Positions 10,111-35,253 are shown, counted from the first letter of the stretch. The stretch is DNA of 64,000 nt from Deltaproteobacteria bacterium (GCA_016209105.1 JACQWR010000013.1:30623-94622), one strand, 5' to 3'. Translations and numbers: made by a program. Notes: a model not told the origin generated them from the sequence alone.

Positions 10111-10151
10111 ATAGAGTGGCGCAGAACGTAAGGGAAAAGGTCTGAGTAACG

Positions 10152-13448: not shown

Positions 13449-16400
13449 ATGGATGTGAAAGTCGGGGCAGTGATGGTTGTGGGCGGAGGGATAGCCGGCA
13501 TTCAGGCTTCCCTCGATCTGGCGGAATCCGGTTACTACGTTTATCTCATCGAATCTTCCCCTGCCATTGGCGGCCGCATGGCGCAGTTGGACAAGACGTT
13601 TCCGACGAACGATTGCGCCATGTGTATCGTATCTCCGAAGTTGGTAGAGGCGGGTCGTCATTTAAACATCGAGATTCTCACCAATTCCGAATTAATTTCC
13701 TTAGGAGGAGAGCCGGGCCGCTTTACGGCGCGCGTGCGTCGTGCACCCCGTTATGTGGATACGGCGAAATGTACGGGTTGCGCCGATTGCGTAGCGGTAT
13801 GCCCGGTCGGGTTATCGAACGAATTTAATGAGGGATTGGATGAGCGGAAGGCAATCTATCGTCCCTATCCACAGGCGGTTCCCAATTCATTTTTGGTGAC
13901 GAAGCGCGGGACGAGTCCCTGCAAGGCTGCGTGCCCTGCGGAGACGAGCGCCCAGGGGTACGTTGCGTTGATCCAGGCCGGTCACTACGAGGAGGCGCTG
14001 GAGGTAATACGGGAATACAATCCCTTTCCCGCTTCGGTGGGGAGGGTATGCACGCATCCCTGTGAGAGGGAATGCAGTCGCGGGAAGGTTGATGCGCCGG
14101 TATCAATATGCGCTTTGAAGCGGTTTACCGCGGACTGGGTGTACGAGCACGGCAGCTCATTGAACAAGGCGGCAGGTGTCGGCGACGGCATTTCGGGGAG
14201 GCCCGAGGCAAAGGTGGCGGTAGTTGGTTCCGGACCCGCCGGTTTGAGTTGCGCGCATCATCTGGTTCGAATGGGGTACGGGGCAGTGGTATTCGAGTCA
14301 TTGCCGGTTGCTGGCGGCATGATGCGGGTAGGGATACCGGCATACCGTTTACCGCGAGAGGTGTTGCAGCGGGAGATTGATGTCATCGTTTCCGAGGGCG
14401 TGGAGATACGCCTGAACAGCCCCGTTCGGGACATAAACGGGTTATTTGCTGAGGGATACAGCGCGGTATTTTTGGCAATAGGCGCGCATGAGCCGCAACG
14501 TTTGGGCATCGAGGGAGAGGATGCGATCGGGGTATATCACGGCGTTCCTTTTTTACAGTCGGTGAGCTTGGGCGGTAAGGGGGGGACATTGCCCACCGTG
14601 GGCGATCGGGTGGTGGTCGTCGGAGGCGGCAACACGGCGGTGGATGCGGCGCGCACCTCACTTCGTTTGGGAGCCCGCGAGGTGGTGATGCTCTATCGTC
14701 GTTCCCGGGAGGAGATGCCGGCGAGCGGCTGGGAGATAGAACAGGCCGAGCAGGAGGGCGTCAAACTGGAATTGCTGACAGCTCCCGTGGCGGTAGAGGT
14801 AAAGGAGGGCCGGGTCGTCGGGGTAACGTGTCAGCGCATGGAGTTGGGCGAGCCTGACGAGAGCGGGCGCAGGCGTCCCGTGCCGGTGGCTGGTTCGGAA
14901 TTTTCCATTGGAGCGGACACGATGATCGCAGCGGTCGCGCAGGCGCCTGAGATATCGTTTTTGGATTCATCCCACGGTTTGGAGGTAAGTTCCCGTGGCA
15001 CCTTTGTGGTTGATCAAAAGACGCTGGCCACGAAGCGTGCGGGTGTTTTTGCCGGGGGCGATGTCCATCGCGGCCCGGGGATACTGATCGAGGCAATCGC
15101 GGATGGCAGGCGAGGCGCCCTTTCCATTGATCGCTATTTGAGAGGGGTTGATCTCCTCACCGCTCGTGAGGAGGTTCCCCTGCCGGTAGTCGCACTTACG
15201 GACGATGAGATAGACCATATCATTGAGGCGGGGAAGGTGGATTTATCTTCGCGGGTGTCCGTGGCCACGGCGCCGATTTCGGAACGCGTGCAAGATTTCC
15301 GCGAGGTGGAACTCTCATTGACGGAGGAGGAAGCAAAGCGTGAAGCTGCGCGTTGTCTTGAATGCGGGATCTGTTCGGAGTGCCATTTGTGTGTTCGGGT
15401 TTGCAAGGCAGGTGCGATAGATCACCAGGAGGCGGCTCGTGAGGATGAACTTCTGGTGGGGTCGGTGATTTTGGCGCCGGGGTATTCCTTATATGATCCC
15501 GGGTTGTCGCCGGAGTTGGGGTACGGCCGCTACGCGAACGTGGTGACGAGCATGGAGTTCGAGCGGATCCTCTCCGCCTCCGGACCTTTTGCGGGTCATG
15601 TGACCCGACCTTCGGATCATCGGGAGCCGAAGAAGATCGCCTTTTTGCAGTGCGTCGGCTCCCGGAACAAGGACAATGACTACTGCAGCTCGGTGTGCTG
15701 CATGTACGCCACAAAGGAAGCGGTTATTCTGAAAGAGCACCTGCCCGCTGCGGAGCCCACCATCTTCTATATGGACATCCGCGCCCAGGGAAAAGATTTT
15801 GATCTTTATTACGAACGGGCAAAAAAGGATTACGGCGTCCGTTACGTCCATTCCCATATCTCCCGCATCGCGGAGAAACCGGCGAGCGGTAATCTTCTGA
15901 TCAGGTATATAGATGCCGAGAAGGGGATACAGGAAGAAGAGTTCGACATGGCGGTTCTTTCCGTGGGCATGAAACCGGCGCCGCAGGCGCGGGAGCTTGC
16001 CGGGAGGCTCGGCGTCTCCCTCGACGGGAACGGGTTCTGCCTCTCCGATGGCTTTTCACCGCTCAACACCTCGGTGCCGGGCGTCTTTGCCTGCGGGGTA
16101 TTTCAAGGTCCCAAGGATATTCCGGAAACGGTCGTTCAGGCAGGCGCTGCGGCCGAGGCCGCTTCTGCCTTCCTTGCCGAGGCGAGAGGAACCCTCACGA
16201 GAAAGAAAGAGTATCCACCGGAGCGCGATGTAACCGCCCAGGAGGCCCGTATCGGCGTCTTCGTATGCCATTGCGGGATCAACATTGGGGGCATTGTCAA
16301 CGTTCCGGAGGTGAAGGAGTATGCACGAACGCTTCCCAACGTGTTCCATGTTGACGAGAACCTCTACACCTGTTCTCAGGACACGCAGGAGAAGATCAAG

Positions 16401-17927
16401 AAGGCCGTAGATGAATACCATTTAAATCGCGTCGTGGTGGCTTCCTGTTCGCCCCGCACCCATGAACCGCTCTTTCGGGAAACCATCCGGGAGATTGGCC
16501 TGAATAAATATCTTTTCGAGATGGCGAACATCCGCGATCAGTGTTCCTGGGTGCACATGAAACTTCCCCTCGAGGCCACTCAGAAGGCAAAAGAGTTGCT
16601 CAGCATGACGGTGGCAAAAGCCCGCTTGATCAGGGCGCTGGACGAGCCGCTTATGGAAATTAACAAGAAAGCCCTCGTCATCGGCGGCGGCCTGGCGGGA
16701 ATGAAGGCGGCTCTCGGTCTGGCGGAACAGGGTTTTGCCTCCGTCCTGGTGGAGCGGGAGAAAGAGCTTGGGGGAAACCTACGCCATATTTATCATACCC
16801 TGGAAGGAAAGGACGTTCAGCAATTTCTCGAGAGTTCCGTCCGGGAAGTTTTATCCAATCCCCTGATAGAAGTTGTAACGGACGCAGAGATAAAGAGCAT
16901 CAACGGCTACCTGGGCAACTTCCACACGGCGATATCGGCGGGAGGCAGCGAACGGGAATATGAACATGGGGTCGTGATCGTTTCTGTAGGAGCGCAGGAA
17001 AGCCGCCCGTCCGAATATCTCTATGGAAAGGACAACCGCGTCGTCACGCAGAGCGAACTGGAAGAGCGGATTGCCCGCCGGCCTGAAGAAGTAAAGACCT
17101 ATCGAAATATTGTGATGATCCAGTGCGTCGGTTCCCGCATTCCCGAACGACCCAATTGCAGTCGCATCTGTTGTTCCGTGGCGGTGAAAAACGCCCTCGC
17201 GCTCAAGGAGATTTCCCCTGATGCGAATATAACCGTCATCTACCGGGATATGCGCACCTATGGGCTCATGGAGCAGTATTACACGCTGGCTCGAAAAAAA
17301 GGCGTCACCTTTATCCCCTACGACGTGGAGGCAAAGCCGGAACTGAGTGCCGCCGGGGGTGATCTGAATCTGAGCGTGCGGGACAGGATGGTGAACGAGG
17401 AACAGCTCATCACCCCCGATCTTGTCGTGCTCTCCAGTGCGGTTGTGCCCTATGAGAATGACACTTTGGCAAAGATGCTGAAGGTGCCTCTGACGGCAGA
17501 TAAATTCTTCCTCGAAGCGCATATGAAACTGCGGCCGGTGGATTTTGCCACCGATGGCGTATTTCTTGCCGGCATGGCGCACTTCCCCAAGACCATCAGC
17601 GAGACAATAGCGCAGGCAGGAGCGGCCGTGTCGCGGGCTACCGCTGCCATCGCCAAAGGCTTTGTAAGCGTCCTTCCCACGATCTCCTGCGTAGACCAGA
17701 GCCGTTGCGTCGGCTGCGGCCTTTGCGAATCCCTCTGTCCGTTCAATGCCATCCGGGTGGGCGAGACGGAAAAAGGGAAGAAGGCCGAGACGATTGCGGC
17801 ATCGTGCAAAGGCTGCGGCATCTGCGCTGCCAGTTGCCCCCAGAAGGCAGCCGCTATACATCATTTTACGGACGAAGAGTTATACGCTCAAATAGAGGCA
17901 TTGAAAGATATCGCGGTAATGCAGTGA
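13449..17927 (+). CDS. Giant HdrA-class flavoprotein with inserted NfnB/GltD-like NAD(P)H oxidoreductase module and a second HdrA-like half (HdrL-type), copy 1
   Basis: 1492 aa.
- HdrA start: VVGGGIAGIQASLDLA, FPTNDCAMCI, CTGCADCVAVCP.
- GltD/NfnB-like part: SPCKAACPAETSAQGY, VAVVGSGPAGLSCAHHL, VVVVGGGNTAVDAART, GVFAGGDV.
- Then CLECGICSECHLCVRVC.
- Second half: GVFVCHCGINIGG, ALVIGGGLAGMKAAL.
- C-terminal 2x4Fe-4S: CVGCGLCESLCP, CKGCGICAASCP. Confidence 0.85.
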   Translation: MDVKVGAVMVVGGGIAGIQASLDLAESGYYVYLIESSPAIGGRMAQLDKTFPTNDCAMCIVSPKLVEAGRHLNIEILTNSELISLGGEPGRFTARVRRAPRYVDTAKCTGCADCVAVCPVGLSNEFNEGLDERKAIYRPYPQAVPNSFLVTKRGTSPCKAACPAETSAQGYVALIQAGHYEEALEVIREYNPFPASVGRVCTHPCERECSRGKVDAPVSICALKRFTADWVYEHGSSLNKAAGVGDGISGRPEAKVAVVGSGPAGLSCAHHLVRMGYGAVVFESLPVAGGMMRVGIPAYRLPREVLQREIDVIVSEGVEIRLNSPVRDINGLFAEGYSAVFLAIGAHEPQRLGIEGEDAIGVYHGVPFLQSVSLGGKGGTLPTVGDRVVVVGGGNTAVDAARTSLRLGAREVVMLYRRSREEMPASGWEIEQAEQEGVKLELLTAPVAVEVKEGRVVGVTCQRMELGEPDESGRRRPVPVAGSEFSIGADTMIAAVAQAPEISFLDSSHGLEVSSRGTFVVDQKTLATKRAGVFAGGDVHRGPGILIEAIADGRRGALSIDRYLRGVDLLTAREEVPLPVVALTDDEIDHIIEAGKVDLSSRVSVATAPISERVQDFREVELSLTEEEAKREAARCLECGICSECHLCVRVCKAGAIDHQEAAREDELLVGSVILAPGYSLYDPGLSPELGYGRYANVVTSMEFERILSASGPFAGHVTRPSDHREPKKIAFLQCVGSRNKDNDYCSSVCCMYATKEAVILKEHLPAAEPTIFYMDIRAQGKDFDLYYERAKKDYGVRYVHSHISRIAEKPASGNLLIRYIDAEKGIQEEEFDMAVLSVGMKPAPQARELAGRLGVSLDGNGFCLSDGFSPLNTSVPGVFACGVFQGPKDIPETVVQAGAAAEAASAFLAEARGTLTRKKEYPPERDVTAQEARIGVFVCHCGINIGGIVNVPEVKEYARTLPNVFHVDENLYTCSQDTQEKIKKAVDEYHLNRVVVASCSPRTHEPLFRETIREIGLNKYLFEMANIRDQCSWVHMKLPLEATQKAKELLSMTVAKARLIRALDEPLMEINKKALVIGGGLAGMKAALGLAEQGFASVLVEREKELGGNLRHIYHTLEGKDVQQFLESSVREVLSNPLIEVVTDAEIKSINGYLGNFHTAISAGGSEREYEHGVVIVSVGAQESRPSEYLYGKDNRVVTQSELEERIARRPEEVKTYRNIVMIQCVGSRIPERPNCSRICCSVAVKNALALKEISPDANITVIYRDMRTYGLMEQYYTLARKKGVTFIPYDVEAKPELSAAGGDLNLSVRDRMVNEEQLITPDLVVLSSAVVPYENDTLAKMLKVPLTADKFFLEAHMKLRPVDFATDGVFLAGMAHFPKTISETIAQAGAAVSRATAAIAKGFVSVLPTISCVDQSRCVGCGLCESLCPFNAIRVGETEKGKKAETIAASCKGCGICAASCPQKAAAIHHFTDEELYAQIEALKDIAVMQ
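13480..15720 (+). repeat. Dispersed repeat, copy A (5' ~2.2 kb of HdrL-type gene 1), highly similar to 30780-33040
   Basis: Line-by-line comparison gives 55/60 identical nt for 13561-13620 vs 30871-30930 and again for 13621-13680 vs 30931-30990. An 82-nt stretch has one mismatch. Boundaries are approximate. Confidence 0.75.
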
Positions 17928-17968
17928 ATAGTTAGTAGTGAATAGTTCATTGAACACAGGGTGCAACC

Positions 17969-18724
17969 ATGAGTTTTGAGCCGAAGATATTGACGTTCCT
18001 GTGCAACTGGTGCGCATATGCCGGCGCCGATCTTGCCGGCATTTCCCGCTTCCAGTATCAGCCGAACACCCGCGTCATACGGGTGATGTGTTCCGGCCGG
18101 ATTGACCCGGTGTTTATCCCCCGCGCTTTTCTTGCCGGCTTTGACGGGGTCATGATTCTCGGCTGCCATCCCGGCGATTGCCACTACTTGAGCGGCAACA
18201 TCCAGGCGGAACGCAAGATAAACCTTCTCAAGAAACTCCTGACCGACGAAGGGGTAGGCAGCGAGAGGCTCCTTCTGGACTGGGTTTCTGCCGGTGAAGC
18301 GCAACGGTTCGCCCTGCTTGTCAACCAGTTTACGGAGCAGATACGGGCTTGCGGACCGCTGCCTCAGGCAAAAGATTTTGAAGAGCGGCTGCGGGCTGTC
18401 GCCGCATCGCTTGAAGGAGAAAAGATCCGCTGGATGGCGGGCAAGGGGCCCGAACTCCTGGAGAAGGAAAACGTGTACGGCGAGCGCGTTGATCCGGAAA
18501 AGATCAATGCGGTTATGGAAAGTACCGTCAGAGAGGAGTTGGCGAAGAACCGCATCCTTATTCTGCTCGAAACGACCCCCCTCACGGCTAAAGAAATCAG
18601 TATGAAACTTGAGCTTCCCCTGAAGCAAACACTCTCCTATACCGTTTCTCTGGTCGGCGAGGGCAGGATCGGGTTCGATCCCTCAGAGGAAACTCATTAT
18701 CCGCGCTATGTAAGGAGTGCGTAA
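17969..18724 (+). CDS. mvhD: MvhD/FlpD-like protein fused to a C-terminal winged-helix-like domain (Cys form)
   Basis: The N-terminal 130 aa carry the MvhD motifs LCNWCAYAGADLAG, VMCSGRIDP and GCHPGDCHY. The C-terminal ~110 aa include NRILILLETTPLTAKEISMKLELPLKQTLSYTVSLVGEGRI, which resembles an ArsR/TrmB-type wHTH. Confidence 0.82.
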   Translation: MSFEPKILTFLCNWCAYAGADLAGISRFQYQPNTRVIRVMCSGRIDPVFIPRAFLAGFDGVMILGCHPGDCHYLSGNIQAERKINLLKKLLTDEGVGSERLLLDWVSAGEAQRFALLVNQFTEQIRACGPLPQAKDFEERLRAVAASLEGEKIRWMAGKGPELLEKENVYGERVDPEKINAVMESTVREELAKNRILILLETTPLTAKEISMKLELPLKQTLSYTVSLVGEGRIGFDPSEETHYPRYVRSA

Positions 18725-18741
18725 AAGTTAATGAGGAAAGA

Positions 18742-21700
18742 ATGAATACTGTTCCGGACAAACCCGTTGGCGCCGTACTGGTGGTAGGCGGCGGCATCGG
18801 CGGCATGCAGGCCTCCCTCGATCTGGCGGAATCGGGCTTTTATGTGTATCTCGTAGACAGCGCGCCGACCATCGGCGGCGTCATGTCGCAACTCGACAAG
18901 ACCTTTCCCACGAACGACTGCGCCATGTGCATCATGTCGCCGAAGCTGGTGGGTACGGGCTCTCACCGGAATATCCGCCTGATCACGAACGCCTCCGTGA
19001 AGGAAATCGTCGGTCCCGCCGGCAATTTCGAGGCCCGGATCACCAGAAAAGCCCGGTATATCCGTCCCGACAAGTGCACCGGCTGCGGAGAATGCGCCAA
19101 ACACTGCCCCGTTATCGCCGGTGATGATTATAACGTGGGAATGAGCAGAAGGTCGGCGGTGTACCTGCGCTATCCCCAGGCCATCCCCAAGGTGTTTCTC
19201 ATCGACCGGGAGGCCTGTATCGGCTGCGGTCTCTGCGAGCGGGTTTGCCTCGCCAACGCCGTGGACTATGCCGATCAGGATACGGAAGAGACCCTGTCCG
19301 TCGGTTCCGTCATCTTGGCGCCCGGCTTCGAGGTATTTGATGCGAGGCGCCGCCCGGAGTTCGGCTATGGCGTCTATCCCAACGTCCTGACGAGTATCGA
19401 GTTTGAGCGGATCCTGAGCGCCACCGGCCCCCATCGGAGTCACCTGCTTCGTCCCTCCGACGGTTCCATCCCCGAAAGGATCGCCTTTATCCAGTGCGTC
19501 GGCTCCCGTGATACGAGCTGCGGCAATGACTACTGTTCTTCCATCTGCTGCATGTACGCGACCAAAGAGGCCATCATCGCCAAAGAGCATGTCCACTTCG
19601 TCAAGCCGACGATCTTCTATATGGATATCAGGGCCTACGGCAAGGGATTCGATGCCTATTATGAACGCGCCAAGGCCGACTATGGCGTCCGGTTCATCAA
19701 GTCCATGGTCTCGAAGGTCAGGGAAGATCCGCGGACCGATAATCTCCTGATTACCTATCTGAATGAGGAGGGGGAGAGGCTCGAAGAGGAATTCGAGCTG
19801 GTGGTTCTTTCCGTCGGCGTGGTTCCCTCGACGTCCGTTCGCGAGATGGCGAAGCGTCTGGACGTGGATGTGGACCGCTTCGGTTTCTGTGAGACGGATA
19901 CCTTCGCTCCCGTCGCCACGTCGAGAGAGGGAATCTACGTCTGCGGCGCCTTCGAGAGTCCCCGGGATATTCCGGAAACCGTTTCCCAGGCCAGCGGCGC
20001 GGTTGCCGCGGCCACGGGCATCATCGCCTCGGCGCGGGGAACCCTGGCGTTAAAAAAAGAATACCCGCCCGAGGATGAGGTCAAGCCGGAAGAGGAACCG
20101 CGGATCGGCGTCTTCGTCTGCCACTGCGGCATCAATATCGGGGGCGTGATCAATGTCCCGTCGGTCAAGGAGTACGCCGGGACGCTGCCCAACGTGGTCC
20201 ACGTGGATGAGAACCTCTACACCTGCTCGCAGGACACGCAGGAAAAGATAAAAAATGCCGTCAAGGAACGGGGCTTGAACCGGGTCATCGTCGCCTCCTG
20301 TTCCCCGCGAACCCATGAGCCCATGTTCCGGGAAACCATCCGGGATGCCGGGCTGAATAAGTTTCTCTTCGAGATGGCCAATATCCGCGACCAATGCTCC
20401 TGGGTGCACATGCGGCAGAAGGCGGAGGCAACGGAGAAGGCCAAGAAGCTTGTCCGGATGGCCGTGGGCAATGTGCGCTTGAACCAGGCATTGACGGAGA
20501 CATCCGTGCCGGTGGTCCAGCGGGGCCTGGTAATCGGCGGCGGCGTTGCGGGCATGACGGCCGCCCTCCAGCTTGCTGAACAGGGGTTTGAAGTGTTTCT
20601 GGTGGAAAAGGAAAGCCGGCTGGGAGGCAACCTCTGGAACCTCCATTATACTCTCGACGGCAAAGACATCGAGGCCTTCCTCCTCGATTTGATTGCGAAG
20701 GTCTCAAACAATCCGCTGATCCGGGTGCTGCTGAACAGCCTGATTGTGGATTTTACCGGTGTCCGGGGAAACTTCACCACCGGTGTCATGACGGCGCCTG
20801 CCATGTACTATCAGAAGATCGAGCACGGCATCACCGTCATGGCAACGGGCGCCGAAGAGGAGAAGCCGCATGAATACGGTTACGGCGAGGACGAGCGCGT
20901 CCTGACGCAGCTTGAACTGGAAGGCCGTATCGCGGGGGCGGATACGGGGATAAGTGGGATCAAAGAAGTGGTCATGATCCAGTGCGTGGGTTCCCGGAAT
21001 GAGCAGCACCCCTCCTGCAGCCGCACCTGCTGCGCCACGGCCATCAAGAACGCGCTCAAGCTCAAAGAACTGAACCCTGCGATCCGCATTCACATTCTCT
21101 ATCGTGATATCCGCACCTACGGCCTGATGGAGCCGTACTATGCCCGGGCGCGCAAGGAAGGCATCCTGTTTGTCCGCTATGAGCCGGCGGAAGGTCCTGA
21201 AGTAACGGTGAACGAAAACAAGCTCTCGGTATCCTATGACGATAAAATGTTAAAGGAACGGATCACCATTACCCCTGATCTTCTCGTTCTGTCATCGGCA
21301 ACCGTCCCGCGGGAAAACAAGGAACTTGCCAATCTCTTGAAGGTGCCCCGGACGGCAGAAGGCTTCTTCCTCGAGGCTCACATGAAGCTGCGCCCCGTGG
21401 ATTTCGCCAGTGACGGCATCTACCTTTGCGGGGGCGCCCATGCCCCGAAATTGATCAGTGAGACCATATCCCAGGCAGGCGCCGCAGTGGCGAGGGCCTG
21501 CACCATCCTTTCGAAGGAAAACCTCTCCGTTGGCGGGGTCGTGGCCGTGGTTACGGGTGAGCAATGCGCCGCCTGTCTTACCTGTGTGCGGGTATGCCCC
21601 TACGATGTGCCGGTTATCAATATCCGGGGAGAGGCGGAGATAGATATCATCAAGTGCAAAGGATGCGGCACCTGTGCGGCGGAATGCCCGGCCCGGGCGA

Positions 21701-21774: not shown

Positions 21775-21820
21775 CAGGAAACCAATATAGTCTTTTATTA
21801 CATTTGGCATTGGTATTACT

Positions 21821-25717: not shown

Positions 25718-25795
25718 CAACAAAATGCCGCAGTGAGAATGCAGAATACAGAATAGAAAGTGTTTCTTACGTCCTTTTGTGAAAAGGAGCTGCCG

Positions 25796-27232: not shown

Positions 27233-27244
27233 GGAGGCATTCCT

Positions 27245-29185
27245 ATGGCACGGGAGCGAGACCGTACAGCGTTGGAACGCAAGATCGTTGCCCTTGAGAA
27301 ACGCTTGGCGAAATATGAGCAGGAAAAAGGCGGCGATGACATGCGGGGGATCGCCGAACGCCTTGAAAAAATAGTCGAGATGGGAGACGACGGCATTATC
27401 GTTTTCGATGAAGATTCCCGGATCGATTTTGCCAATCAGATGGCTTCCGATATTCTCGGCGTTTACAAAGGGAGCATAATCGGCAGCGAATTTTATCGGC
27501 TTATCGGAAAAAGCGACCAGGAGTTTCTGAAGGACATGGTGACACGCGGCAAGGGCGTCGGCCAGAAGTTCTGTACGGAAATGGCAATCAAAACACCCCG
27601 CGGAGACCTTATACAAACGGAAGTGTGCATAGCCCCGTCGCATACGGATGATGGAAAGAGTGTAACGTACGCCTATATCAGGGACATAACGGAGAGAAAA
27701 AAATATGAAAAGGATTTAAAAGAGTCGGAAGAGAAATATCGCAATCTTTTTGAACGGGTGCGGCACGGTATTTACGGAAGCAGCAAAGAAGGACGATTCA
27801 TAGACTGCAACCCAACCCTCCTGGAGATGCTGGGTTATGAAACCAGGGAAGAATTCCTGAAGATAGACATAGTCCATGACCTTTACACAAAACCGGAAGA
27901 CCGGGTTGCTTTTCAAAAGCTCATAGAAAAACAAGGATTTGTAAAAGATCTGGAGGTGGAATTTAAAAAGAAAAATAAGGAAACGATTACCGTGCTCCTG
28001 ACAGCCCATGTCAAGATGGACGACCGCAGGTCGATTACCGGCTATGAAGGCCTCATCATCGATATTTCCGACAGAAAACGGATGGAAAAGGAGCTGCGGG
28101 AGGCGAACGAATTTTTGACCAGACTGATTGAAAGCTCTGTGGACGGCATCATTGTGGCGGATACGGAGGGGAAGGTGCTCATCTTCAACAGGGGCGCCGA
28201 AAATATGCTTGGTTACAAAGCGGAAGAGGTGGTGGGGAAAATGAACATCCGCGGCATCTACCCGACCGGTGTGGCCAGGGAGGTTATGCAGAAGCTCAGG
28301 AGCAATGACTTCGGCGGTGTGGGAAAGCTTACCTCGTTTCCCCTTCTTGTCCGCAGAAAAGACGGCGAGCTTATCGAAGGCGACCTTTCCGCTACGCTCA
28401 TTTATGATGAAATGGGGAACGAGCTGGTGAGTGTCGGGATATTCAAGGATTTGCGGGAAAGGCTGGGAATTGAGCGGGAACTCAGGAAAACGCAGGAAGC
28501 GCTTCTTCAGGCAGAGAAGCTCGCCGCCATGGGAAGACTTACCTCGCAGATCGCACACGAGTTGAATAATCCGATCTACGGAATTATGAATACCCTGGAG
28601 TTGCTCAAATCCGAGGTTCCGCTGGAGAGCAAACGGAGACGCATATTGGAGTTGTCTCTTTCCGAAACGGTCAGACTTTCCGAAATGCTCCGCAGCATGC
28701 TCAGTTTTTCCAAGCCGGAAGAGGAGAAAAGAACGCCGACAAAAATTAACGAGCTCATTGAGGGAATCCTGCTCGTTATGGAAAAGCAGATGCGGGAAGA
28801 GAATATCCGGGTAACAACGGCTTTTGCCAAAAACGTTCCCGAAGTCATGGCTTCCACCAATCAAATCAGGCAGGTCATGCTCAACATGATCAAGAATGCA
28901 AAGGAAAGCATGCCTACGGGGGGAGTCCTGAACATCAGGACGATGCATAACACCGGGAAAATCCTTATTATTATCCGTGATACGGGGGCTGGAATACCCG
29001 AGGATATCCGCGATAAGATATTTGAAGCTTTCTTCACCACCAAGCAAAAAGTAAAGGGCGTGGGATTGGGATTGTCCGTCTGTTACGGCATCATCAAAGA
29101 CCACGGTGGCGAAATCAGTGTAGAGAGCGAAGTCGGCAAGGGCACAACCTTTATCATCAGTTTGCCTGTTCAGGGGAAAACGTAG
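27245..29185 (+). CDS. Cytoplasmic multi-PAS sensor histidine kinase (paralog 2)
   Basis: Three PAS-like segments. H-box TSQIAHELNNPIYG, then NMIKNAKESM, DTGAGIP and GVGLGLS. The PAS-HK core is clearly paralogous to 10152..11714 (RMEKELREANEFLTRLIESSVDGIIVAD vs RIENELREANEFFQNLISSSVDGIIAAD). Confidence 0.85.
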   Translation: MARERDRTALERKIVALEKRLAKYEQEKGGDDMRGIAERLEKIVEMGDDGIIVFDEDSRIDFANQMASDILGVYKGSIIGSEFYRLIGKSDQEFLKDMVTRGKGVGQKFCTEMAIKTPRGDLIQTEVCIAPSHTDDGKSVTYAYIRDITERKKYEKDLKESEEKYRNLFERVRHGIYGSSKEGRFIDCNPTLLEMLGYETREEFLKIDIVHDLYTKPEDRVAFQKLIEKQGFVKDLEVEFKKKNKETITVLLTAHVKMDDRRSITGYEGLIIDISDRKRMEKELREANEFLTRLIESSVDGIIVADTEGKVLIFNRGAENMLGYKAEEVVGKMNIRGIYPTGVAREVMQKLRSNDFGGVGKLTSFPLLVRRKDGELIEGDLSATLIYDEMGNELVSVGIFKDLRERLGIERELRKTQEALLQAEKLAAMGRLTSQIAHELNNPIYGIMNTLELLKSEVPLESKRRRILELSLSETVRLSEMLRSMLSFSKPEEEKRTPTKINELIEGILLVMEKQMREENIRVTTAFAKNVPEVMASTNQIRQVMLNMIKNAKESMPTGGVLNIRTMHNTGKILIIIRDTGAGIPEDIRDKIFEAFFTTKQKVKGVGLGLSVCYGIIKDHGGEISVESEVGKGTTFIISLPVQGKT

Positions 29186-29262
29186 GTTTCTTCCCTGACG
29201 GTAATATAAATGTAATGTCATGGGGAAAAGGTGACGTAAACAATTTCAATGAGGATAACACC

Positions 29263-29835
29263 ATGGAAATGTTAACGGTATCCCAGGCAAGCAAGTACTG
29301 TTCTGTTCCAACGAAAACGATACTGAGCTGGATTGAATCGGGCGATCTTTCCGCCCAGAAAACCGTCGGCGGCCATCGCCGCATCAGGAAGGAAGACCTT
29401 GACACCGTTCTGGTGAAGAAGGGCATCCCGCTCCCTGGTAATGCAAAAAAAGAGGCGAGAAAAAAAATACTGGTGGTTGATGACGATAGAATTATCGTGG
29501 AGACGATCGTTCAAGCGCTGGAGGAAGATGAATACGGATACGAGATGATTTCGGCATCCGACGGTTTCGAGGCGGGTCTGCAGGTCAGTCATTTCAAACC
29601 CGATCTCCTTATCCTTGACATCATGATGCCCGACATAAACGGATACGAGGTCTGCAGAAGAATCAAAGAGAATGCCGCGATAAAGGATATTAAGATTATT
29701 GTGTTATCGGCCTATCTCAATGAAGAGGCATTTGATCAGATGAAGACGTATGGGGCGGACGCCTGTTTTTCCAAACCCCTGCCGCTCGCCCAGTTGAAGC
29801 ATGAGGTTGCAAAGCTTTTAGGACTGAAAACGTGA
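29263..29835 (+). CDS. Response regulator with N-terminal excisionase/MerR-type HTH and C-terminal receiver domain
   Basis: The HTH is LTVSQASKYCSVPTKTILSWIESGDLSAQKTVGGHRRIRKEDL. The receiver is KILVVDDD...LLILDIMMPDINGYEVCRRIK...KIIVLSA. ATG 29263 follows GAGGA (29251-29255). Confidence 0.75.
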   Translation: MEMLTVSQASKYCSVPTKTILSWIESGDLSAQKTVGGHRRIRKEDLDTVLVKKGIPLPGNAKKEARKKILVVDDDRIIVETIVQALEEDEYGYEMISASDGFEAGLQVSHFKPDLLILDIMMPDINGYEVCRRIKENAAIKDIKIIVLSAYLNEEAFDQMKTYGADACFSKPLPLAQLKHEVAKLLGLKT

Positions 29836-29842
29836 GGAGATT

Positions 29843-30724
29843 ATGCGGTTAGCAGAAAATCTGAAAAAGAAAAAGTTTGTCGTTACCTCGGAACTTCAGC
29901 CTCCTATCGGCATGGGAGCGGGTGAGTTCGTCCAAAATGTGGAGCGGGCACGGGGAAGGGTGGATGCCTTTACCGTGCCCGAACTGAAAATTGAAGGGCT
30001 GGTTGCCGATACGATGGGGACCTGCAAGATACTGAGGGAGCATCAATTCGATCCGATCCTGCAAACCGCCTGCCGCGACAGGAACAGGGTGGAACTCCAA
30101 GAGTACCTTCTCAAGGCATCGGAGGCGGGCATAGAAAATATCCTTACCTTTACGGAGGACTACCGTATCACCGGTGACAGCCTGCAGGAAATTATGTTCT
30201 TTCATGTGGATTCGGGCAAGCTTTTTTCCGTTGTGGAGAATATGAGCCGGGGACAGGATATTTCCGGGAAGGAATTGCCCGCCAAGGCCACTTTCTGCAT
30301 TGGTTCCGGCATTGATTCCCGATGGGGCAGACAAGTGCCGGATATGCAACTCAAGGAAATGGAATCGCTGGCGGGTTTTGGCGCCCAGTATTTCCTCTCC
30401 ACGCCGGTGTTTGATCTCGATTCCTTCAATCAATTCATGAAACGCCTGGCGCCTCTCCGGGTTCCGGTCATCGCCGAAATCATACTCGTGAGAACCGCCG
30501 AGATGGGGATCTTTCTTAACAAACACATGAGGAGTGGGATCGTCCCCCCGCATATCATTGAGAAATTAGCCAAGGCTCCGGACAAGGAAAAAGCGAGCAT
30601 CGAAATCGTCAGCGATCTGGTGAAAGGGCTGAAGGATCTCTGTCAGGGGGTGCACCTCATCCCCTTCGGCGCGGAGGACCGGATTGCAAAGTACCTTGAG
30701 GCTGCAAAACTTTCATCCCTGTAA
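29843..30724 (+). CDS. Divergent MetF/MTHFR-family protein (copy 3, motifs altered)
   Basis: Retains TSELQPP and CRDRNR. NITDNQ is replaced by TVPELK, LCLSGDH by LTFTEDY, and FIQTQCIYD by YFLSTPVFD. RBS GAGGAG. Lies immediately upstream of HdrL-type gene 2. Confidence 0.7.
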   Translation: MRLAENLKKKKFVVTSELQPPIGMGAGEFVQNVERARGRVDAFTVPELKIEGLVADTMGTCKILREHQFDPILQTACRDRNRVELQEYLLKASEAGIENILTFTEDYRITGDSLQEIMFFHVDSGKLFSVVENMSRGQDISGKELPAKATFCIGSGIDSRWGRQVPDMQLKEMESLAGFGAQYFLSTPVFDLDSFNQFMKRLAPLRVPVIAEIILVRTAEMGIFLNKHMRSGIVPPHIIEKLAKAPDKEKASIEIVSDLVKGLKDLCQGVHLIPFGAEDRIAKYLEAAKLSSL

Positions 30725-30747
30725 CGGGAAGGGGAACCTTTGACGGT

Positions 30748-33700
30748 ATGAATTTGCGGGAAAACCAAAAAATAGGAGCCGCCCTGGTTATCGGTGGGGG
30801 GATAGCGGGCGTTCAGGCGTCTCTGGACCTGGCCAATTCGGGCATCAAGGTTTATCTTCTCGAATCTTCGCCTGCCATTGGCGGTCGGATGGCTCAGTTG
30901 GACAAGACGTTTCCTACGAACGATTGCGCCATGTGCATTGTATCGCCGAAGTTGGTAGAGGCGGGTCGTCATCTGAACATCGAGATTCTCACCAATTCCA
31001 AGTTAGTATCATTATCGGGCATTCCGGGTTCATTTCGGGCGCGTATTCGTCATTCGCCGCGGTACATTGATGTGGGGAAGTGCACGGGTTGTGCCGATTG
31101 CGCGGAGGTTTGTCCGGTTGTGTTGTCGAACGAGTTCAATGAGGGGTTGGACGAGCGGAGGGCCATTTATCGTCCTTACCCCCAGGCGGTTCCGAATTCA
31201 TTTTTAGTAACGAAGCGGGGGACAAGTCCCTGCAAGGCGGCCTGTCCTGCGGAGACGAGCGCACAGGGGTATGTTGCCTTGATTGGCGCCGGTCGGTATG
31301 AGGAGGCATTGGAGGTAATTCGGGAGTACAATCCCTTTCCTGCCTCGGTGGGGAGGGTATGCACGCATCCGTGTGAGGAGGAGTGCAGTCGGGGGAAGGT
31401 TGATTCTCCCGTGGGGATTTGCGCCTTGAAGAGATTTGTTGCGGACTGGGTATATGAGCACGGCGGTTCATCGGAGAAGGCGATAGGGATTGGTGACGGG
31501 ATTACGGGGAGGCCCGAGGCGAAGGTAGCGGTGGTCGGTTCCGGTCCTGCTGGCATGAGTTGTGCTCATCATCTGGTTCGGATGGGATATGGGGTTACGG
31601 TTTATGAGTCATTGCCGGTAGCGGGGGGGATGATGCGGGTGGGGATACCTGCGTACCGGTTGCCGCGGGAGGTATTGCAGCGGGAGATAGACGCCATTGT
31701 AGCCGAGGGTGTGGAGTTGAGGTTAAACACTCCGGTTCGGGACATAAACGGGTTATTTGAGGAAGGCTACCGCGCGGTATTTCTGGCGATGGGCGCTCAT
31801 GAGCCTCAGCGCCTGGGGATTGAGGGCGAGGATGCCAGGGGGGTATATCATGGCGTTCCTTTTTTGCAGTCGGTGAGCTTGGGTGACGGCGGCGGGGAGT
31901 TGCCCCGGACGGGTGAGCGGGTAGTAGTGATTGGCGGCGGCAACACGGCGATTGACTCGGCGCGCACGGCACTTCGTCTGGGGGCGAGGGAGGTGATGCT
32001 GGTTTATCGTCGTTCGCGGGAGGAGATGCCGGCGAACGACTGGGAGGTAGAAGAGGCGGAGCGTGAGGGCGTCAAGCTTGAGTTGTTGACGGCGCCGGTG
32101 TCGGTGGAGACGCGGGAGGGCAGGATTGTCGGCGTTCGGTGTTTGCGTATGGAGTTGGGGGAGGCGGACGCGAGCGGGCGGAGGCGTCCGGTTCCGGTTC
32201 CCGGTTCTGAGTTTGTGATTGCGGCGGACACGATGATTGCGGCGGTTGCTCAGGCGCCGGAGATATCTTTTTTGGATGAGTCGCACGGTTTGGAGATAAG
32301 TTCGCGGGGGACATTTGTCGTTGATCAAAAGACTCTGGCCACGAAGCGTGCGGGGATATTTGCCGGGGGCGATGTTCACCGGGGCCCGGGGATATTGATT
32401 GAGGCCATAGCGGACGGTCGGCGGGGCGCGCTTTCGATAGACCGGTATTTACGGGGGGTTGATCTCCTCACCGCTCGTGAGGAGGTTCCCCTGCCGGTAG
32501 TCGCGCTTACGGACGATGAGATAGACCATATCATTGCGGCGGGGAAGGTGGATTTATCGCCGCGGGTGACGGCACCGACCTCGCCAGTTTCGGAGCGTAT
32601 TCGTGATTTTCGCGAGGTTGAGCTGTCGTTGACGGAGGCCGAGGCAAGGCGAGAGGCTGCTCGTTGTCTCGAATGCGGGATCTGTTCGGAGTGTCATTTA
32701 TGCGTGCGGGTGTGCAAGGCGGGTGCGATAGATCACCAGGATGCGGCGCGGGAGGAAGAGCTTTCGGTGGGATCGGTGATAGCGGCGCCGGGGTACTCGT
32801 TATATGACCCGGGGTTGTCTCCGGAGCTGGGATATGGTCGTTATGCCAATGTGGTCACGAGCATGGAGTTTGAGCGGATGCTTTCCGCCTCCGGCCCGTT
32901 CGGGGGACACGTGACCCGTCCCTCGGATCACCGGGAGCCGAAGAAGATCGCTTTTCTCCAGTGCGTCGGCTCCCGCGACAAGGACCATGATTACTGTAGC
33001 TCCGTATGCTGCATGTACGCCACAAAGGAAGCTGTGCTTGCCATGGAGCACATACCGGGTGTGGAGTGCATAATATTTCAGATGGACATGCGTGCCTTCA
33101 GCAAGGGGTTTGACGCCTATTACGAGAGAGGGAAGGAAAAAGGCGTACGCTATATTCCCTGCAGGATTTCCGCTCTGGAGGAGGACCCCCGGACAAAGGA
33201 AATTCTTATTCGCTACCGCAATGGAAGCGAAGATCCCTCCATTCGTGAGGAACGGGTTGATATGGCGATACTGAGTATCGGCATGTCGCCGCCTTCCCGG
33301 ATCGGGGAATTTGCGGAGATCGCAGGCATTGAACTCAACGCCCACCGGTTTTGCTCGACCCGTGACTTTTATCCCCTCGAAACAAGCCGTCCCGGTGTTT
33401 ATGTGTGCGGTACTTTTGCTGAACCAAAGGACATCCCGGACACCGTCATCCAGGCAAGCGGCGCGGCGGCAAAAGCCCTTGCCCTGCTGGGGGAATCCCG
33501 CGGAACCCTGATTCGCAAAAAAGACTATCCTCCCGAGCAGGAATGTCCTGCCGGTGAAGAGCCGCGGATCGGCGTATTTGTTTGCAGTTGCGGTTCAAAT
33601 ATTGCGGGAACGGTAGCGGTAAAAGATGTGGTGAACTATGTGGGCGCTCTTCCCGGCGTCGTCCATGTGGAAAACACAACCTATACCTGTTCGGCCGATT

Positions 33701-35253
33701 CGCTGGTTCTGATCCAGAAAAGGATGCGGGAGTTGAACTTGAACCGGCTGGTGGTCGCTTCCTGCTCGCCGCGCACCCATGAACCGCTTTTCCGGGAAAC
33801 GATCCGGGAGGTTGGCATCAACCCTTACCTTTTCGAGATGGCAAATATCCGCGATCAGTGCTCCTGGGTGCATATGGGCAGAAATGAAGAGGCTACGGAA
33901 AAGGCAAAACACCTCACCGGGATGGCTGTTGCCTGCGCGTCCAATCTGGAGCCCCTCCACCGCACGGAGCGGAGTCTGATCAACAAGTGCCTTGTGGTAG
34001 GGGGCGGTTTGGCCGGAATGACGAGCGCAGTAAATCTGGCGGATCAGGGCTTCTTCGTTTATCTGCTCGAACGGGAAAAAGAACTTGGCGGTGCGCTCAG
34101 GCATATTCATTTCAGCGCGGAAGGAGGCGATCCACAGCTTTTCTTGACGGATTTGATCAACCGCGTTGAAACCCATCCGCTCATAGAGGTCCTGCCCGGT
34201 TACCAGGTGGCGGACCATTCGGGAGGAGTGGGAAACTTTCAGACGAAAGTTGCCGAGGTAAACGGTCCCCGCCAGATGGTCATCGAACATGGAACCACGA
34301 TCATTGCCACCGGCGGTAGAGAGTACCGCGGAAGGAGTTCCCGCCTGAATGACGACAAACAAGTCATGACCCAAATGGACTTGGAGGCGAAAATCGCCGG
34401 CCAAGATCAAACCGTTGCCGAAGCGAAATCGGTGGTGATGATACAGTGCGCAGGCCCCTGGGACGATGATCCGACGATTCCCTTTTATTGCAGCCGCATT
34501 TGCTGCACACTGGCGCTCAAGAATGCCTTGAAGCTGAAGGAATTGAATCCGGAGCTTTCCCTTGTCATTTTATACAAAGATATGAGAACCTATGGATTCA
34601 AAGAAAGCATCTACACCCGGGCCAGAGAGAAGGGCATACTGTTCGTCCGTTTTGACGACATGCATAAACCAAAAGTCACGTCTTCAGACGGCAGAATTTC
34701 AGTCGAGGTACTGGAGCCTATGCTCCGCCTGCCGCTGATTCTGACGCCGGATATTCTCGTGCTTTCCCAAGCTATCGTCCCCCAGGAGGACAGCAAAGAA
34801 TTGGCCAATATCTTTAAATTCCCTCGCAGCGCCGAGGGCTTCTTTCTGGAAGCGCACATGAAGCTCCGGCCCGTGGATTTTGCCGCCGACGGCCTTTATC
34901 TCTGTGGTATGGCACATTATCCGAAAACGATAAATGAAAGCATTGCCCAAGCCCAAGCCGCCGCAGCCAGATCTGCCACCGTCCTTTCCCGTGATTCGCT
35001 TCTCGTCGGAGGGGTTGTGGCCGTTGTTTCCGGTGAGCGTTGCGCCGCCTGTTTGACCTGTGTTCGCCTGTGTCCTTACGGAGTTCCCGTAATAAATGCC
35101 CAGGGAGAAGCGGAGATTGACGTGGGGCTGTGCAAGGGATGCGGCACCTGCGTCGCGGAGTGTCCCGCTCGTGCCATTGATTTGATGCATTTTCGCTTCA
35201 GTCAGCTTGAAGCAAAAGTGGGGGCATTGGCGGCAGGTACCGGGGGAGGGTAG
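30748..35253 (+). CDS. Giant HdrA-class flavoprotein with NfnB/GltD-like insert (HdrL-type), copy 2
   Basis: 1501 aa with the same architecture as 13449..17927. The N-terminal ~745 aa are nearly identical to copy 1. The C-terminal end (CAACLTCVRLCPYGVPVINAQGEAEID..CKGCGTCVAECPARAIDLMHFR) resembles the hdrA gene at 18742 instead. Confidence 0.85.
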   Translation: MNLRENQKIGAALVIGGGIAGVQASLDLANSGIKVYLLESSPAIGGRMAQLDKTFPTNDCAMCIVSPKLVEAGRHLNIEILTNSKLVSLSGIPGSFRARIRHSPRYIDVGKCTGCADCAEVCPVVLSNEFNEGLDERRAIYRPYPQAVPNSFLVTKRGTSPCKAACPAETSAQGYVALIGAGRYEEALEVIREYNPFPASVGRVCTHPCEEECSRGKVDSPVGICALKRFVADWVYEHGGSSEKAIGIGDGITGRPEAKVAVVGSGPAGMSCAHHLVRMGYGVTVYESLPVAGGMMRVGIPAYRLPREVLQREIDAIVAEGVELRLNTPVRDINGLFEEGYRAVFLAMGAHEPQRLGIEGEDARGVYHGVPFLQSVSLGDGGGELPRTGERVVVIGGGNTAIDSARTALRLGAREVMLVYRRSREEMPANDWEVEEAEREGVKLELLTAPVSVETREGRIVGVRCLRMELGEADASGRRRPVPVPGSEFVIAADTMIAAVAQAPEISFLDESHGLEISSRGTFVVDQKTLATKRAGIFAGGDVHRGPGILIEAIADGRRGALSIDRYLRGVDLLTAREEVPLPVVALTDDEIDHIIAAGKVDLSPRVTAPTSPVSERIRDFREVELSLTEAEARREAARCLECGICSECHLCVRVCKAGAIDHQDAAREEELSVGSVIAAPGYSLYDPGLSPELGYGRYANVVTSMEFERMLSASGPFGGHVTRPSDHREPKKIAFLQCVGSRDKDHDYCSSVCCMYATKEAVLAMEHIPGVECIIFQMDMRAFSKGFDAYYERGKEKGVRYIPCRISALEEDPRTKEILIRYRNGSEDPSIREERVDMAILSIGMSPPSRIGEFAEIAGIELNAHRFCSTRDFYPLETSRPGVYVCGTFAEPKDIPDTVIQASGAAAKALALLGESRGTLIRKKDYPPEQECPAGEEPRIGVFVCSCGSNIAGTVAVKDVVNYVGALPGVVHVENTTYTCSADSLVLIQKRMRELNLNRLVVASCSPRTHEPLFRETIREVGINPYLFEMANIRDQCSWVHMGRNEEATEKAKHLTGMAVACASNLEPLHRTERSLINKCLVVGGGLAGMTSAVNLADQGFFVYLLEREKELGGALRHIHFSAEGGDPQLFLTDLINRVETHPLIEVLPGYQVADHSGGVGNFQTKVAEVNGPRQMVIEHGTTIIATGGREYRGRSSRLNDDKQVMTQMDLEAKIAGQDQTVAEAKSVVMIQCAGPWDDDPTIPFYCSRICCTLALKNALKLKELNPELSLVILYKDMRTYGFKESIYTRAREKGILFVRFDDMHKPKVTSSDGRISVEVLEPMLRLPLILTPDILVLSQAIVPQEDSKELANIFKFPRSAEGFFLEAHMKLRPVDFAADGLYLCGMAHYPKTINESIAQAQAAAARSATVLSRDSLLVGGVVAVVSGERCAACLTCVRLCPYGVPVINAQGEAEIDVGLCKGCGTCVAECPARAIDLMHFRFSQLEAKVGALAAGTGGG
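30780..33040 (+). repeat. Dispersed repeat, copy B (5' ~2.2 kb of HdrL-type gene 2)
   Basis: See copy A at 13480-15720. It is a direct repeat about 17.3 kb away. Confidence 0.75.

What the first reader, a model, noticed from the sequence alone, without database searches (positions are those of the whole stretch)
13449..35253. Two ~1500-aa HdrA-NfnB-like fusion genes as 17-kb-spaced direct repeats with mosaic C-termini
- The proteins at 13449..17927 and 30748..35253 share the same unusual architecture. An HdrA N-terminus is interrupted by a GltD/NfnB-like NAD(P)H module, followed by a second HdrA-like half.
- Their first ~745 aa are near-identical, and about 2.2 kb of DNA matches at roughly 9 of 10 positions in the lines I compared.
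- Similarity drops sharply after ATKEAV.
- The extreme C-terminus of copy 2 (CAACLTCVRLCPYGVPVINAQGEAEID...ARAIDLMHFRFSQLEAK) matches the C-terminus of the separate hdrA gene at 18742 (CAACLTCVRVCPYDVPVINIRGEAEID...ARAIDLMHFRGSQLEAK), not that of copy 1.
- This pattern indicates domain shuffling or partial duplication among three HdrA-class genes.
- It also creates a substrate for recombination that would delete or invert the 17 kb between them.
Basis: seen in the sequence. Interest (0 to 1): 0.6.

Follow-up and report, generated by a model that had tools for sequence, protein, structure and literature searches.

The report
Two HdrL genes sharing a converted half
Two large NADH-linked redox genes of a known type share a similar front half because that half has been copied between them repeatedly over evolution. 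The enzyme design itself is already known.

Summary

- **Similarity and breakpoint.** Genes A (13449-17927) and B (30748-35253) are 86% identical in protein and 81% in DNA over the first ~758 residues. Identity then falls to 49% at a sharp breakpoint just after the motif CSSVCCMYATKEAV.
- **Architecture.** It is not unusual. It matches the published Moorella thermoacetica HdrA, also called "HdrL", of the Hdr-type methylene-THF reductase. The gene at 18742 is the Sporomusa-type double HdrA.
- **Two old lineages.** A and B belong to two old HdrL lineages with different back halves. Both lineages, and the whole gene order, recur in other Syntrophales-like assemblies.
- **Conflicting histories.** The back halves form two clean clades. 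The front halves group by organism lineage, not by paralogue. Flanking paralogues are only 35-59% identical.
- **Best explanation.** Gene conversion between the paralogues has repeatedly homogenised the NAD(P)H-input half. It is old here (dS ~0.9), but an 82-nt tract with one mismatch shows a recent event.
- **B's C-terminus.** Its likeness to hdrA's fits shared ancestry of the B and H back halves, not a separate swap.
- **Deletion risk.** It is weak: the longest exact match is 50 nt and the layout is conserved. Inversion is impossible for direct repeats.

The parts
13449..17927 (+). HdrL copy A (1492 aa): Moorella-type HdrA with a GltD/NfnB-like insert and an A-type back half
   Evidence: ORF. 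Pfam and NCBIfam domains. Full-length orthologues at 70-82%. Cofactor motifs intact.
13449..15722 (+). Shared N-terminal NAD(P)H-input module of A (aa 1-758), the homogenised tract
   Evidence: 86% aa and 81% nt identity to B, dS 0.89, dN 0.09. Breakpoint test.
15684..15722 (+). Junction motif CSSVCCMYATKEAV, where similarity to B ends (B: 32995-33033)
   Evidence: Maximum chi-square breakpoint at nt 15720. The G298 pair breaks at the same place. The position lies inside a continuous HdrA-homologous stretch, A 641-857 matching 5odc_A 292-511.
15144..15225 (+). 82-nt tract with one mismatch to 32455-32536: a recent short gene-conversion tract
   Evidence: Permutation P < 1/5000. It covers the variable peptide ALTDDEIDHII, which differs between the copies in G298 and G292.
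30748..35253 (+). HdrL copy B (1501 aa): the same N-module with a B-type back half
   Evidence: B-type orthologues at 68-84% in the back half. Motifs intact.
30748..33033 (+). Shared N-terminal module of B (aa 1-762)
18742..21774 (+). H: 1010-aa double HdrA without a GltD insert (Sporomusa-type). Its C-terminal ferredoxin domain is the same type as B's.
   Evidence: Architecture as described in PMC9430772.
11723..13134 (+). HdrC (11723-12286) and HdrB (12283-13134), upstream of copy A
   Evidence: Pfam Fer4_17 and CCG. Conserved neighbours of A-type genes.
17969..18724 (+). MvhD1 (251 aa, FlpD domain plus a C-terminal extension), downstream of copy A
   Evidence: Pfam FlpD. Conserved.
23695..24132 (+). 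MvhD2 with an in-frame TGA at 23755-23757, opposite a Cys of MvhD1
Evidence: Translation. Conserved after H in related loci.
24060..27232 (+). MetV2, MetF2 and the HdrCB fusion
   Evidence: Pfam DUF5981, MTHFR and Fer4_17+CCG. Only 44%, 59% and 35-43% identical to MetV1, MetF1 and HdrC/HdrB.
27245..30724 (+). PAS histidine kinase 2, HTH-response regulator and the divergent MetF3, directly upstream of copy B
   Evidence: Pfam. RR-MetF3-HdrL_B linkage seen in all 8 B-type loci examined.
6791..11714 (+). MetF1, intervening genes, MetV1 and PAS histidine kinase 1, upstream of the HdrC-HdrB-HdrL_A unit
   Evidence: Pfam. Synteny in L141 and L071.
21821..23548 (+). AAA_15/AAA_21 ATPase gene between H and MvhD2. 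It is an insertion, not part of the conserved locus.
   Evidence: Pfam. H and MvhD2 are adjacent in L141, L143-L145, L153 and L140.

Best explanation
A and B are two anciently diverged paralogues of the Moorella-type HdrA ("HdrL"). They sit in neighbouring paralogous gene sets of the Hdr-type methylene-THF reductase (MetF/MetV, HdrC/HdrB or an HdrCB fusion, MvhD).

Each protein has two parts. The N-terminal input module is the start of a thioredoxin-reductase-like FAD domain, split by a GltD/NfnB-like unit that binds [4Fe-4S], FAD and NAD(P)H. The C-terminal output module is the rest of that domain, an MvhD-like part, a second FAD domain and a 2x[4Fe-4S] ferredoxin domain.

The output modules of A and B are old and different. 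They presumably dock with different partner sets.

The input module, about 2.27 kb, has been copied between the two genes by homologous recombination (gene conversion). This happened more than once in different lineages, and the exchange always ends in the highly conserved block CSSVCCMYATKEAV.

In this genome the main homogenisation is old (dS ~0.9). A short tract (15144-15225) was converted recently.

- **Shown:** the mosaic, the breakpoint, the conflicting trees, the conserved synteny and the recent tract.
- **Inferred:** the mechanism (conversion within the genome), its likely direction (B-type to A-type), and the idea that one NAD(P)H-input module serves two complexes.
For: 1. **Divergence.** dS is 0.89 and dN 0.09 in the N-half. 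In the C-half dS is saturated and dN is 0.50.
2. **Breakpoint.** Chi-square is 343 against a permutation maximum of 13.8.
3. **C-half tree.** A-type and B-type are clean clades with 100% support.
4. **N-half tree.** The two types interleave by lineage.
5. **AU tests.** They reject a single clade of B-type N-halves (p = 5e-37). On 11 genes from named genomes they also reject the orthology topology (DNA p = 7e-6, protein p = 9e-4).
6. **DNA tree.** G000_A and G000_B are sisters in the N-half (97/96) and far apart in the C-half.
7. **Other genomes.** G298 and G292 show the same pattern and the same breakpoint.
8. **Flanking paralogues.** They are only 35-59% identical.
9. **Recent tract.** The 82-nt tract has P < 1/5000 and is specific to this genome.
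10. **Unconverted state exists.** One MAG carries P0101 (N2 front half + A-type back half) and P0130 (N1 + B-type back half). The front halves of these two types are only ~50% identical. Among 197 full-length hits the combinations are N1+B 105, N2+A 64, N1+A 28 and N2+B 0.
11. **Architecture and context.** They match the published Moorella HdrA (PMC9430772 section 5).
Against: - The margins between same-genome and cross-genome identity in the N-half are small (0.80 against 0.77 nt).
- dS near 1 is noisy.
- Base composition differs in G000_B and G292. That could pull same-genome DNA sequences together.
- The protein tree places G000_A and G000_B as successive basal branches rather than sisters.
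- The direction of conversion is not settled.
- Exchange of N-halves between organisms cannot be fully excluded.
- The function of either complex is untested.
Confidence: 0.7

Rival explanations
1. A recent duplication of the whole gene, or of its front half, happened in this genome. The back half of one copy was then replaced or diverged quickly. This is the first reader's partial duplication or domain shuffling among the three local genes.
For: A and B are each other's nearest relatives in the N-half DNA tree. B's C-terminal domain resembles the local H gene.
Against: - Both back-half types have orthologues at 70-87% in other organisms.
- Other genomes carry the same A/B pair with the same breakpoint.
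- dS of ~0.9 is not recent.
- B to H synonymous sites in the C-terminal domain are near saturation (pS 0.67).
- Flanking genes are old paralogues.
Confidence: 0.08
2. There was no exchange. The two genes are equally old along their whole length, and the front half is simply under much stronger purifying selection.
For: dN is very low in the N-half (0.09). The GltD-like module is conserved across the family.
Against: - Synonymous divergence also differs (0.89 against saturated).
- Trees of the two halves are incompatible (AU p = 5e-37, 7e-6 and 9e-4).
- N-halves of A-type genes come in two types that are ~50% identical, while their back halves are ~70% identical.
Confidence: 0.03
3. The front halves, or whole genes, were exchanged between organisms by horizontal transfer rather than by conversion inside one genome.
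For: The N1-type locus is patchy. It occurs in families f15 and f19 and in this genome, but not in the same-genus or same-family relatives G001-G004.
Against: - Same-genome pairs share the tract, and in G000 they are sisters.
- The 82-nt tract is identical only between the two copies of this genome.
- The locus order is conserved.
Confidence: 0.12
4. The arrangement is an assembly artefact, such as duplicated or chimeric contig parts in a metagenome-assembled genome.
For: The genome is a 29-contig draft that is 92% complete. Reads could not be examined.
Against: - The copies are only 81% identical, with different back halves and different neighbours.
- The same gene order appears in independent assemblies: L141, L152, L148 and L143-L146.
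Confidence: 0.02

Closest known systems
Moorella thermoacetica HdrA (Moth_1194, 1487 aa) of the HdrCBA-MvhD-MetVF methylene-THF reductase
   Same: - Same length class.
- Same domain order as described in PMC9430772: an extra ferredoxin part and a TrxR-like domain interrupted by a GltD domain that binds [4Fe-4S], FAD and NAD(P)H. [quoted passage not shown]
- Same neighbours: hdrC, hdrB, mvhD, metV and metF.
   Different: - Two copies with different back halves sit in one locus.
- PAS kinases and response regulators are interleaved with the metabolic genes.
- Copy B is paired with a divergent MetF3 and an HdrCB fusion.
- No direct sequence comparison with Moth_1194 was possible here.
- Activity is untested.
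HdrL of Desulfobacterium autotrophicum HRM2 and Syntrophobacter fumaroxidans (Sfum_0824)
   Same: - A large HdrA/glutamate-synthase fusion with an NADH site.
- It occurs in several copies per genome.
- It is followed by mvhD.
- One locus has hdrL and hdrA in tandem (PMC2702500, PMC5947623).
   Different: - Those copies were linked to Dsr, formate dehydrogenase or HdrABC contexts, not to MetFV.
- The order-wide HdrL of this organism's relatives sits in such a MetF-free context and is only ~50-55% identical.
Sporomusa ovata HdrA (942 aa, two TrxR-like domains, no GltD)
   Same: Gene H (1010 aa) has this architecture and lies before mvhD-metV-metF (PMC9430772).
   Different: H coexists with two GltD-bearing HdrAs. 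Related genomes have HdrLs whose back half is H-type.
Archaeal HdrA of the MvhAGD-HdrABC complex (PDB 5ODC)
   Same: It is the best solved relative. Four matched stretches include A 641-857 against chain 292-511.
   Different: - It has no GltD insert and a single TrxR-like domain.
- NCBIfam HdrA and HdrA2 scores for A and B are below the curated cut-offs.
Concerted evolution of bacterial paralogues by gene conversion (for example tuf genes and rRNA operons; from general knowledge)
   Same: Co-resident copies stay more alike than orthologues. Boundaries are sharp and short tracts are identical.
   Different: - Only one half of the gene is homogenised.
- The copies remain 19% divergent in DNA, so conversion is rare rather than continuous.

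Membership tests
Moorella-type HdrA / HdrL (HdrA with a GltD/NfnB-like insert) | N-terminal TrxR-like FAD domain interrupted by a GltD-like module that binds [4Fe-4S], FAD and NAD(P)H | tested here: met
   - Fer4_20 plus Pyr_redox_2 at aa 155-553.
- PRK12771 scores 559 (A) and 569 (B), above the cut-off of 516.
- HdrA stretches lie on both sides of the insert.
- GxGxxG motifs at aa 12 and 260, and GGGNTA at 392.
Moorella-type HdrA / HdrL (HdrA with a GltD/NfnB-like insert) | [quoted passage not shown] Total length about 1490 aa. | tested here: met
   - HdrA model stretches at 1174-1485.
- FAD motif at 1079 (A) and 1085 (B).
- Two CxxCxxCxxxCP motifs at the C-terminus.
- Lengths of 1492 and 1501 aa.
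Moorella-type HdrA / HdrL (HdrA with a GltD/NfnB-like insert) | Encoded next to hdrC/hdrB, mvhD, metV and metF | tested here: met
   Pfam on neighbours. The order is conserved in related loci.
Moorella-type HdrA / HdrL (HdrA with a GltD/NfnB-like insert) | NADH oxidation and NADH-dependent methylene-THF reduction by the complex | not testable with these tools
   This needs an enzyme assay. Activity is known only for M. thermoacetica (cited in PMC9430772).
Canonical ferredoxin:CoB-CoM heterodisulfide reductase subunit HdrA (NCBIfam NF041778 / NF040770) | Whole-protein score above the curated cut-off | tested here: not met
   A scores 963.8 (cut-off 1100) and 715.7 (cut-off 1400). B scores 888 and 675.
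Interparalogue gene conversion (concerted evolution) | The tract and its flank have incompatible phylogenies, and co-resident copies group together in the tract | tested here: met
Interparalogue gene conversion (concerted evolution) | Lower synonymous divergence inside the tract, with a sharp boundary | tested here: met
   dS is 0.89 against saturated. Breakpoint chi-square is 343.
Interparalogue gene conversion (concerted evolution) | Runs of identity longer than chance | tested here: met
   The 82-nt tract with one mismatch has P < 1/5000. The 50-nt exact run has P = 0.005.
Interparalogue gene conversion (concerted evolution) | Exchange occurs within the genome rather than between organisms | tested here: inconclusive
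   Supported by the genome-specific 82-nt tract and by the G000 sister pair. The locus has a patchy distribution.

The most novel reading that the evidence does not exclude
The ~758-aa NAD(P)H-input module of HdrA-type flavoproteins behaves as an exchangeable cassette. Homologous recombination at conserved sequence blocks joins it to different HdrA output modules: CSSVCCMYA(T/I)KEA here, and the block around aa 935 in G044 and G035. This has produced at least four front-by-back combinations (N1+B, N1+A, N2+A, N2+H).

Where two complexes coexist, conversion keeps their input modules alike. One cell would then run two methylene-THF-reductase-like complexes from a common NAD(P)H entry point but with different partners.
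Probability: 0.55. Interest if true: 0.45.

Novelty: new member of a known kind. Interest (0 to 1): 0.35.

Why it matters
The Hdr-type methylene-THF reductase is the least understood step of the Wood-Ljungdahl pathway. Its second electron acceptor is still unknown, and no structure of the large HdrA exists.

- **Dissecting the enzyme.** One locus carries two large HdrAs with the same NAD(P)H-input half and different output halves, plus a third HdrA without the insert. This is a natural experiment for working out which part of HdrA determines partner and acceptor choice.
- **Annotation and phylogeny.** Whole-protein trees of HdrL are misleading, so the two halves should be analysed separately.
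- **Limits.** The finding does not reveal a new enzyme type or a new mechanism of genome change.

Tried and rejected
- **Sequencing reads.** Coverage, assembly correctness and deletion variants were therefore not tested.
- **Searching contig records.** Searching the records behind L140-L142 for the B-type gene failed because those records are not held. The same-contig A/B pair in L141 was inferred only from synteny up to the response regulator.
- **Separate swap of B's C-terminal ferredoxin domain with H.** Not required. The middle-region and ferredoxin-domain trees both give B and H as neighbours, and the AU test does not reject B-type monophyly (p = 0.055).
- **Recent A-H conversion at aa 941-1041.** Rejected, because dS there is ~1.4.
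- **The order-wide ~1480-aa HdrL of relatives as an orthologue of A.** Rejected. It is ~50-55% identical and sits in a MetF-free context.
- **Deletion products joining A's front to B's back.** None found. All 8 B-type loci keep RR-MetF3 upstream.
- **Literature.** A search for gene conversion in HdrA found nothing relevant.


Full report
**1. What is there**

The window holds two intact same-strand ORFs. A is 13449-17927 (1492 aa) and B is 30748-35253 (1501 aa). A third HdrA-class gene, H, lies at 18742-21774 (1010 aa).

Pfam and NCBIfam give A and B the same layout:
- an HdrA-like FAD start (aa 1-150);
- a GltD/NfnB-like module (Fer4_20 plus Pyr_redox_2, aa ~155-565; PRK12771 above its cut-off);
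- the rest of an HdrA thioredoxin-reductase-like domain (aa ~640-915);
- a second HdrA-like half (aa ~1070-1490) ending in a 2x[4Fe-4S] ferredoxin domain.

All flavin, NAD(P)H and cluster motifs are present in both proteins. H is a double HdrA without the GltD module.

**2. Check of the observation**

A codon-aware alignment gives 86% amino-acid and 81% nucleotide identity over the first ~758 residues, and 49% and 55% afterwards.

Nei-Gojobori estimates are dS 0.89 and dN 0.09 in the front half. In the back half dS is saturated (~2.3) and dN is 0.50.

A maximum chi-square scan places the breakpoint at A nt 15720 and B nt 33031 (aa 758), directly after CSSVCCMYATKEAV. Chi-square is 343, against a maximum of 13.8 in 200 permutations.

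B's last ~100 residues are 69-84% identical to H and 33-39% identical to A.

The pattern is therefore real. "Near-identical" and "9 of 10" are overstatements. The repeats are direct, and no inverted repeats were found.

**3. The architecture is known**

PMC9430772 (section 5) describes the M. thermoacetica HdrA of the HdrCBA-MvhD-MetVF methylene-THF reductase. It is 1487 aa and has an extra TrxR-like domain interrupted by a GltD domain that binds [4Fe-4S], FAD and NAD(P)H. [quoted passage not shown]

The same paper describes the 942-aa S. ovata HdrA with two TrxR-like domains, which corresponds to H.

The name HdrL was coined for such fusions in D. autotrophicum. That genome has three copies and one tandem hdrL/hdrA locus (PMC2702500). 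The name was reused for S. fumaroxidans (PMC5947623).

Proteins of about 1480-1540 aa with this layout are very common. Each of two database searches returned its maximum of 8000 scored candidates, all with E <= 1e-50. Named genomes from Thermodesulfobacteriota, Chloroflexota, Acidobacteriota, Bacillota and Thermoplasmatales carry them. No structure of this type has been solved; archaeal HdrA 5ODC is the closest.

**4. Context**

Pfam scans give this gene order:
- MetF1 (6791);
- MetV1 (9322);
- PAS kinase 1;
- HdrC;
- HdrB;
- A;
- MvhD1;
- H;
- an AAA_15/21 ATPase;
- MvhD2 (23695, with an in-frame TGA);
- MetV2;
- MetF2;
- HdrCB fusion;
- PAS kinase 2;
- HTH-response regulator;
- MetF3;
- B;
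- a response regulator;
- a hybrid kinase.

The paralogous neighbours are far more diverged than the front halves of A and B:
- MetF1/MetF2 59%
- MetV1/MetV2 44%
- kinase 1/kinase 2 47%
- HdrB/HdrCB 43%
- HdrC/HdrCB 35%

The order HdrC-HdrB-HdrL_A-MvhD1-H-MvhD2-MetV2-MetF2-HdrCB-kinase-RR recurs without the ATPase in a JGI contig (L141). In parts it also recurs in several species genomes. All eight B-type loci examined have RR-MetF3 directly upstream. The layout is therefore conserved and is not an assembly artefact.

**5. Two lineages, one shared half**

A has full-length relatives at 70-82%. B's back half has relatives at 68-84%.

Identity by segment shows two back-half types, A-type and B-type, that are ~47-56% identical to each other. 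Front halves are 70-93% identical regardless of type.

- The back-half tree splits the types cleanly (100/100).
- The front-half tree interleaves them by lineage: (A, B, P0028_B), (P0003_A, P0053_B), and (P0031-33_B with P0001/2/4/9/13_A).
- The AU test rejects a single clade of B-type front halves (delta lnL 419, p = 5e-37).

Two species genomes carry both genes. They are G298, and G292 whose genes are P0009 and P0033. They show the same numbers as this window: front 82-86% aa with dS 0.8-0.9, back 49% aa. They also share the breakpoint.

With DNA of 11 genes from named genomes:
- G000_A and G000_B are sisters in the front half (97/96) and lie in separate clades in the back half (100/100);
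- the orthology topology for the front half is rejected (DNA p = 7e-6, protein p = 9e-4).

**6. Recent tract**

Positions 15144-15225 and 32455-32536 differ at one of 82 positions. The tract includes the peptide ALTDDEIDHII, which varies between genomes and between the copies of G298 and G292.

Permuting differences within codon positions never reached this length in 5000 trials. The 50-nt exact run has P = 0.005. An earlier first-stage note had seen the same tract (e1-3215375).

**7. Direction and wider shuffling**

Among 197 full-length database hits the combinations are N1+B 105, N2+A 64, N1+A 28 and N2+B 0.

Positional equivalents of A in Syntrophaceae loci (L061, L064) have the N2 front half, which is ~51% identical to A's front. 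Their A-type back half is ~70% identical. One MAG has both N2+A (P0101) and N1+B (P0130).

This suggests that N1 belongs originally to the B-type and overwrote the front of the A-type in the lineage of this genome. The direction is not proven.

In G044 and G035 an HdrL with an N2 front and an H-type back half sits in HdrC-HdrB-HdrL-MvhD2-MetV2-MetF2. The crossover is near aa 935. This looks like a fusion of an HdrL and the downstream HdrA with loss of the DNA between them, or like the ancestral state.

**8. B's C-terminus**

In both the middle-region tree and the ferredoxin-domain tree the unrooted arrangement is (B, H | A, order-wide HdrL). The AU test does not reject monophyly of the B-type ferredoxin domains (p = 0.055). 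B to H synonymous sites in that domain are near saturation.

Shared ancestry plus strong conservation is sufficient. A tip-specific swap is not needed.

**9. Recombination risk**

The longest exact matches are 50, 31, 27 and 26 nt within 81% overall identity.

The two-copy layout has survived divergence of dS 0.8 or more in several lineages. No A-front/B-back fusion was seen.

A deletion is possible in principle but is not supported. Inversion is excluded by the orientation of the repeats.

**10. Verdict**

These are known enzyme genes in a conserved locus, with a real and well-supported mosaic history caused mainly by conversion of the NAD(P)H-input half between the paralogues.

The finding is useful for specialists in electron-bifurcating flavoenzymes and for annotation. 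It is not a new kind of system.

The organism is probably a Syntrophales-like member of the Thermodesulfobacteriota. This is judged only from the names of the nearest homologues.

Noticed in passing
In six related loci H and MvhD2 are adjacent, so this is an insertion specific to this genome.
   Followed up: partly
window 23695-24132: MvhD2 has an in-frame TGA (23755-23757) opposite the second Cys of the CNWC motif of MvhD1. It is a candidate selenocysteine. MvhD2 homologues follow H in all related loci.
   Followed up: partly
window 17969-18724: MvhD1 is 251 aa: a FlpD domain (aa 7-129) plus a ~120-aa C-terminal extension. Related loci conserve it at 68-78% identity.
   Followed up: no
window 29843-30724 and loci L148, L149, L151, L152, L062, L063, L068, L133: The divergent MetF3 is 24-27% identical to MetF1 and MetF2 and has no MetV next to it. 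With a response regulator before it, it sits directly upstream of every B-type HdrL examined. This suggests a dedicated MetF3-HdrL_B pair.
   Followed up: partly
L156 (G044) 7971-12473; L040 (G035) 7968-12431: These HdrLs have an N2-type front and an H-type back half, with the crossover near aa 935. They sit in HdrC-HdrB-HdrL-MvhD2-MetV2-MetF2. This is the arrangement expected if an HdrL and the downstream HdrA had recombined with loss of the DNA between them.
   Followed up: partly
genomes G001-G004 against G285, G292, G298, G299, G304, G306, G041 and G043: The N1-type HdrL locus is absent from the same-genus and same-family relatives of this genome. It is present in two other families of the order. 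G000 in turn lacks the order-wide MetF-free HdrL. The cause is either patchy inheritance or transfer of the locus.
   Followed up: no
G295:C10:399976-401574: An N1-type HdrL front half, 82% identical to A, has two in-frame TGA codons and an open frame of only 555 aa. It is either a pseudogene or uses selenocysteine.
   Followed up: no
window 13449-13600 against 30748-30910: The first ~35 residues come in two variants, AESGYYVYL and ANSGIKVYLL. Both variants occur in A-type and in B-type genes of different genomes. This points to smaller conversion tracts inside the shared half.
   Followed up: no
window 7798-9406: The 221-aa ORF at 7798-8463, between MetF1 and MetV1, had no Pfam hit. L071 has a homologue of the ORF (66%) in the same position.
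   Followed up: no
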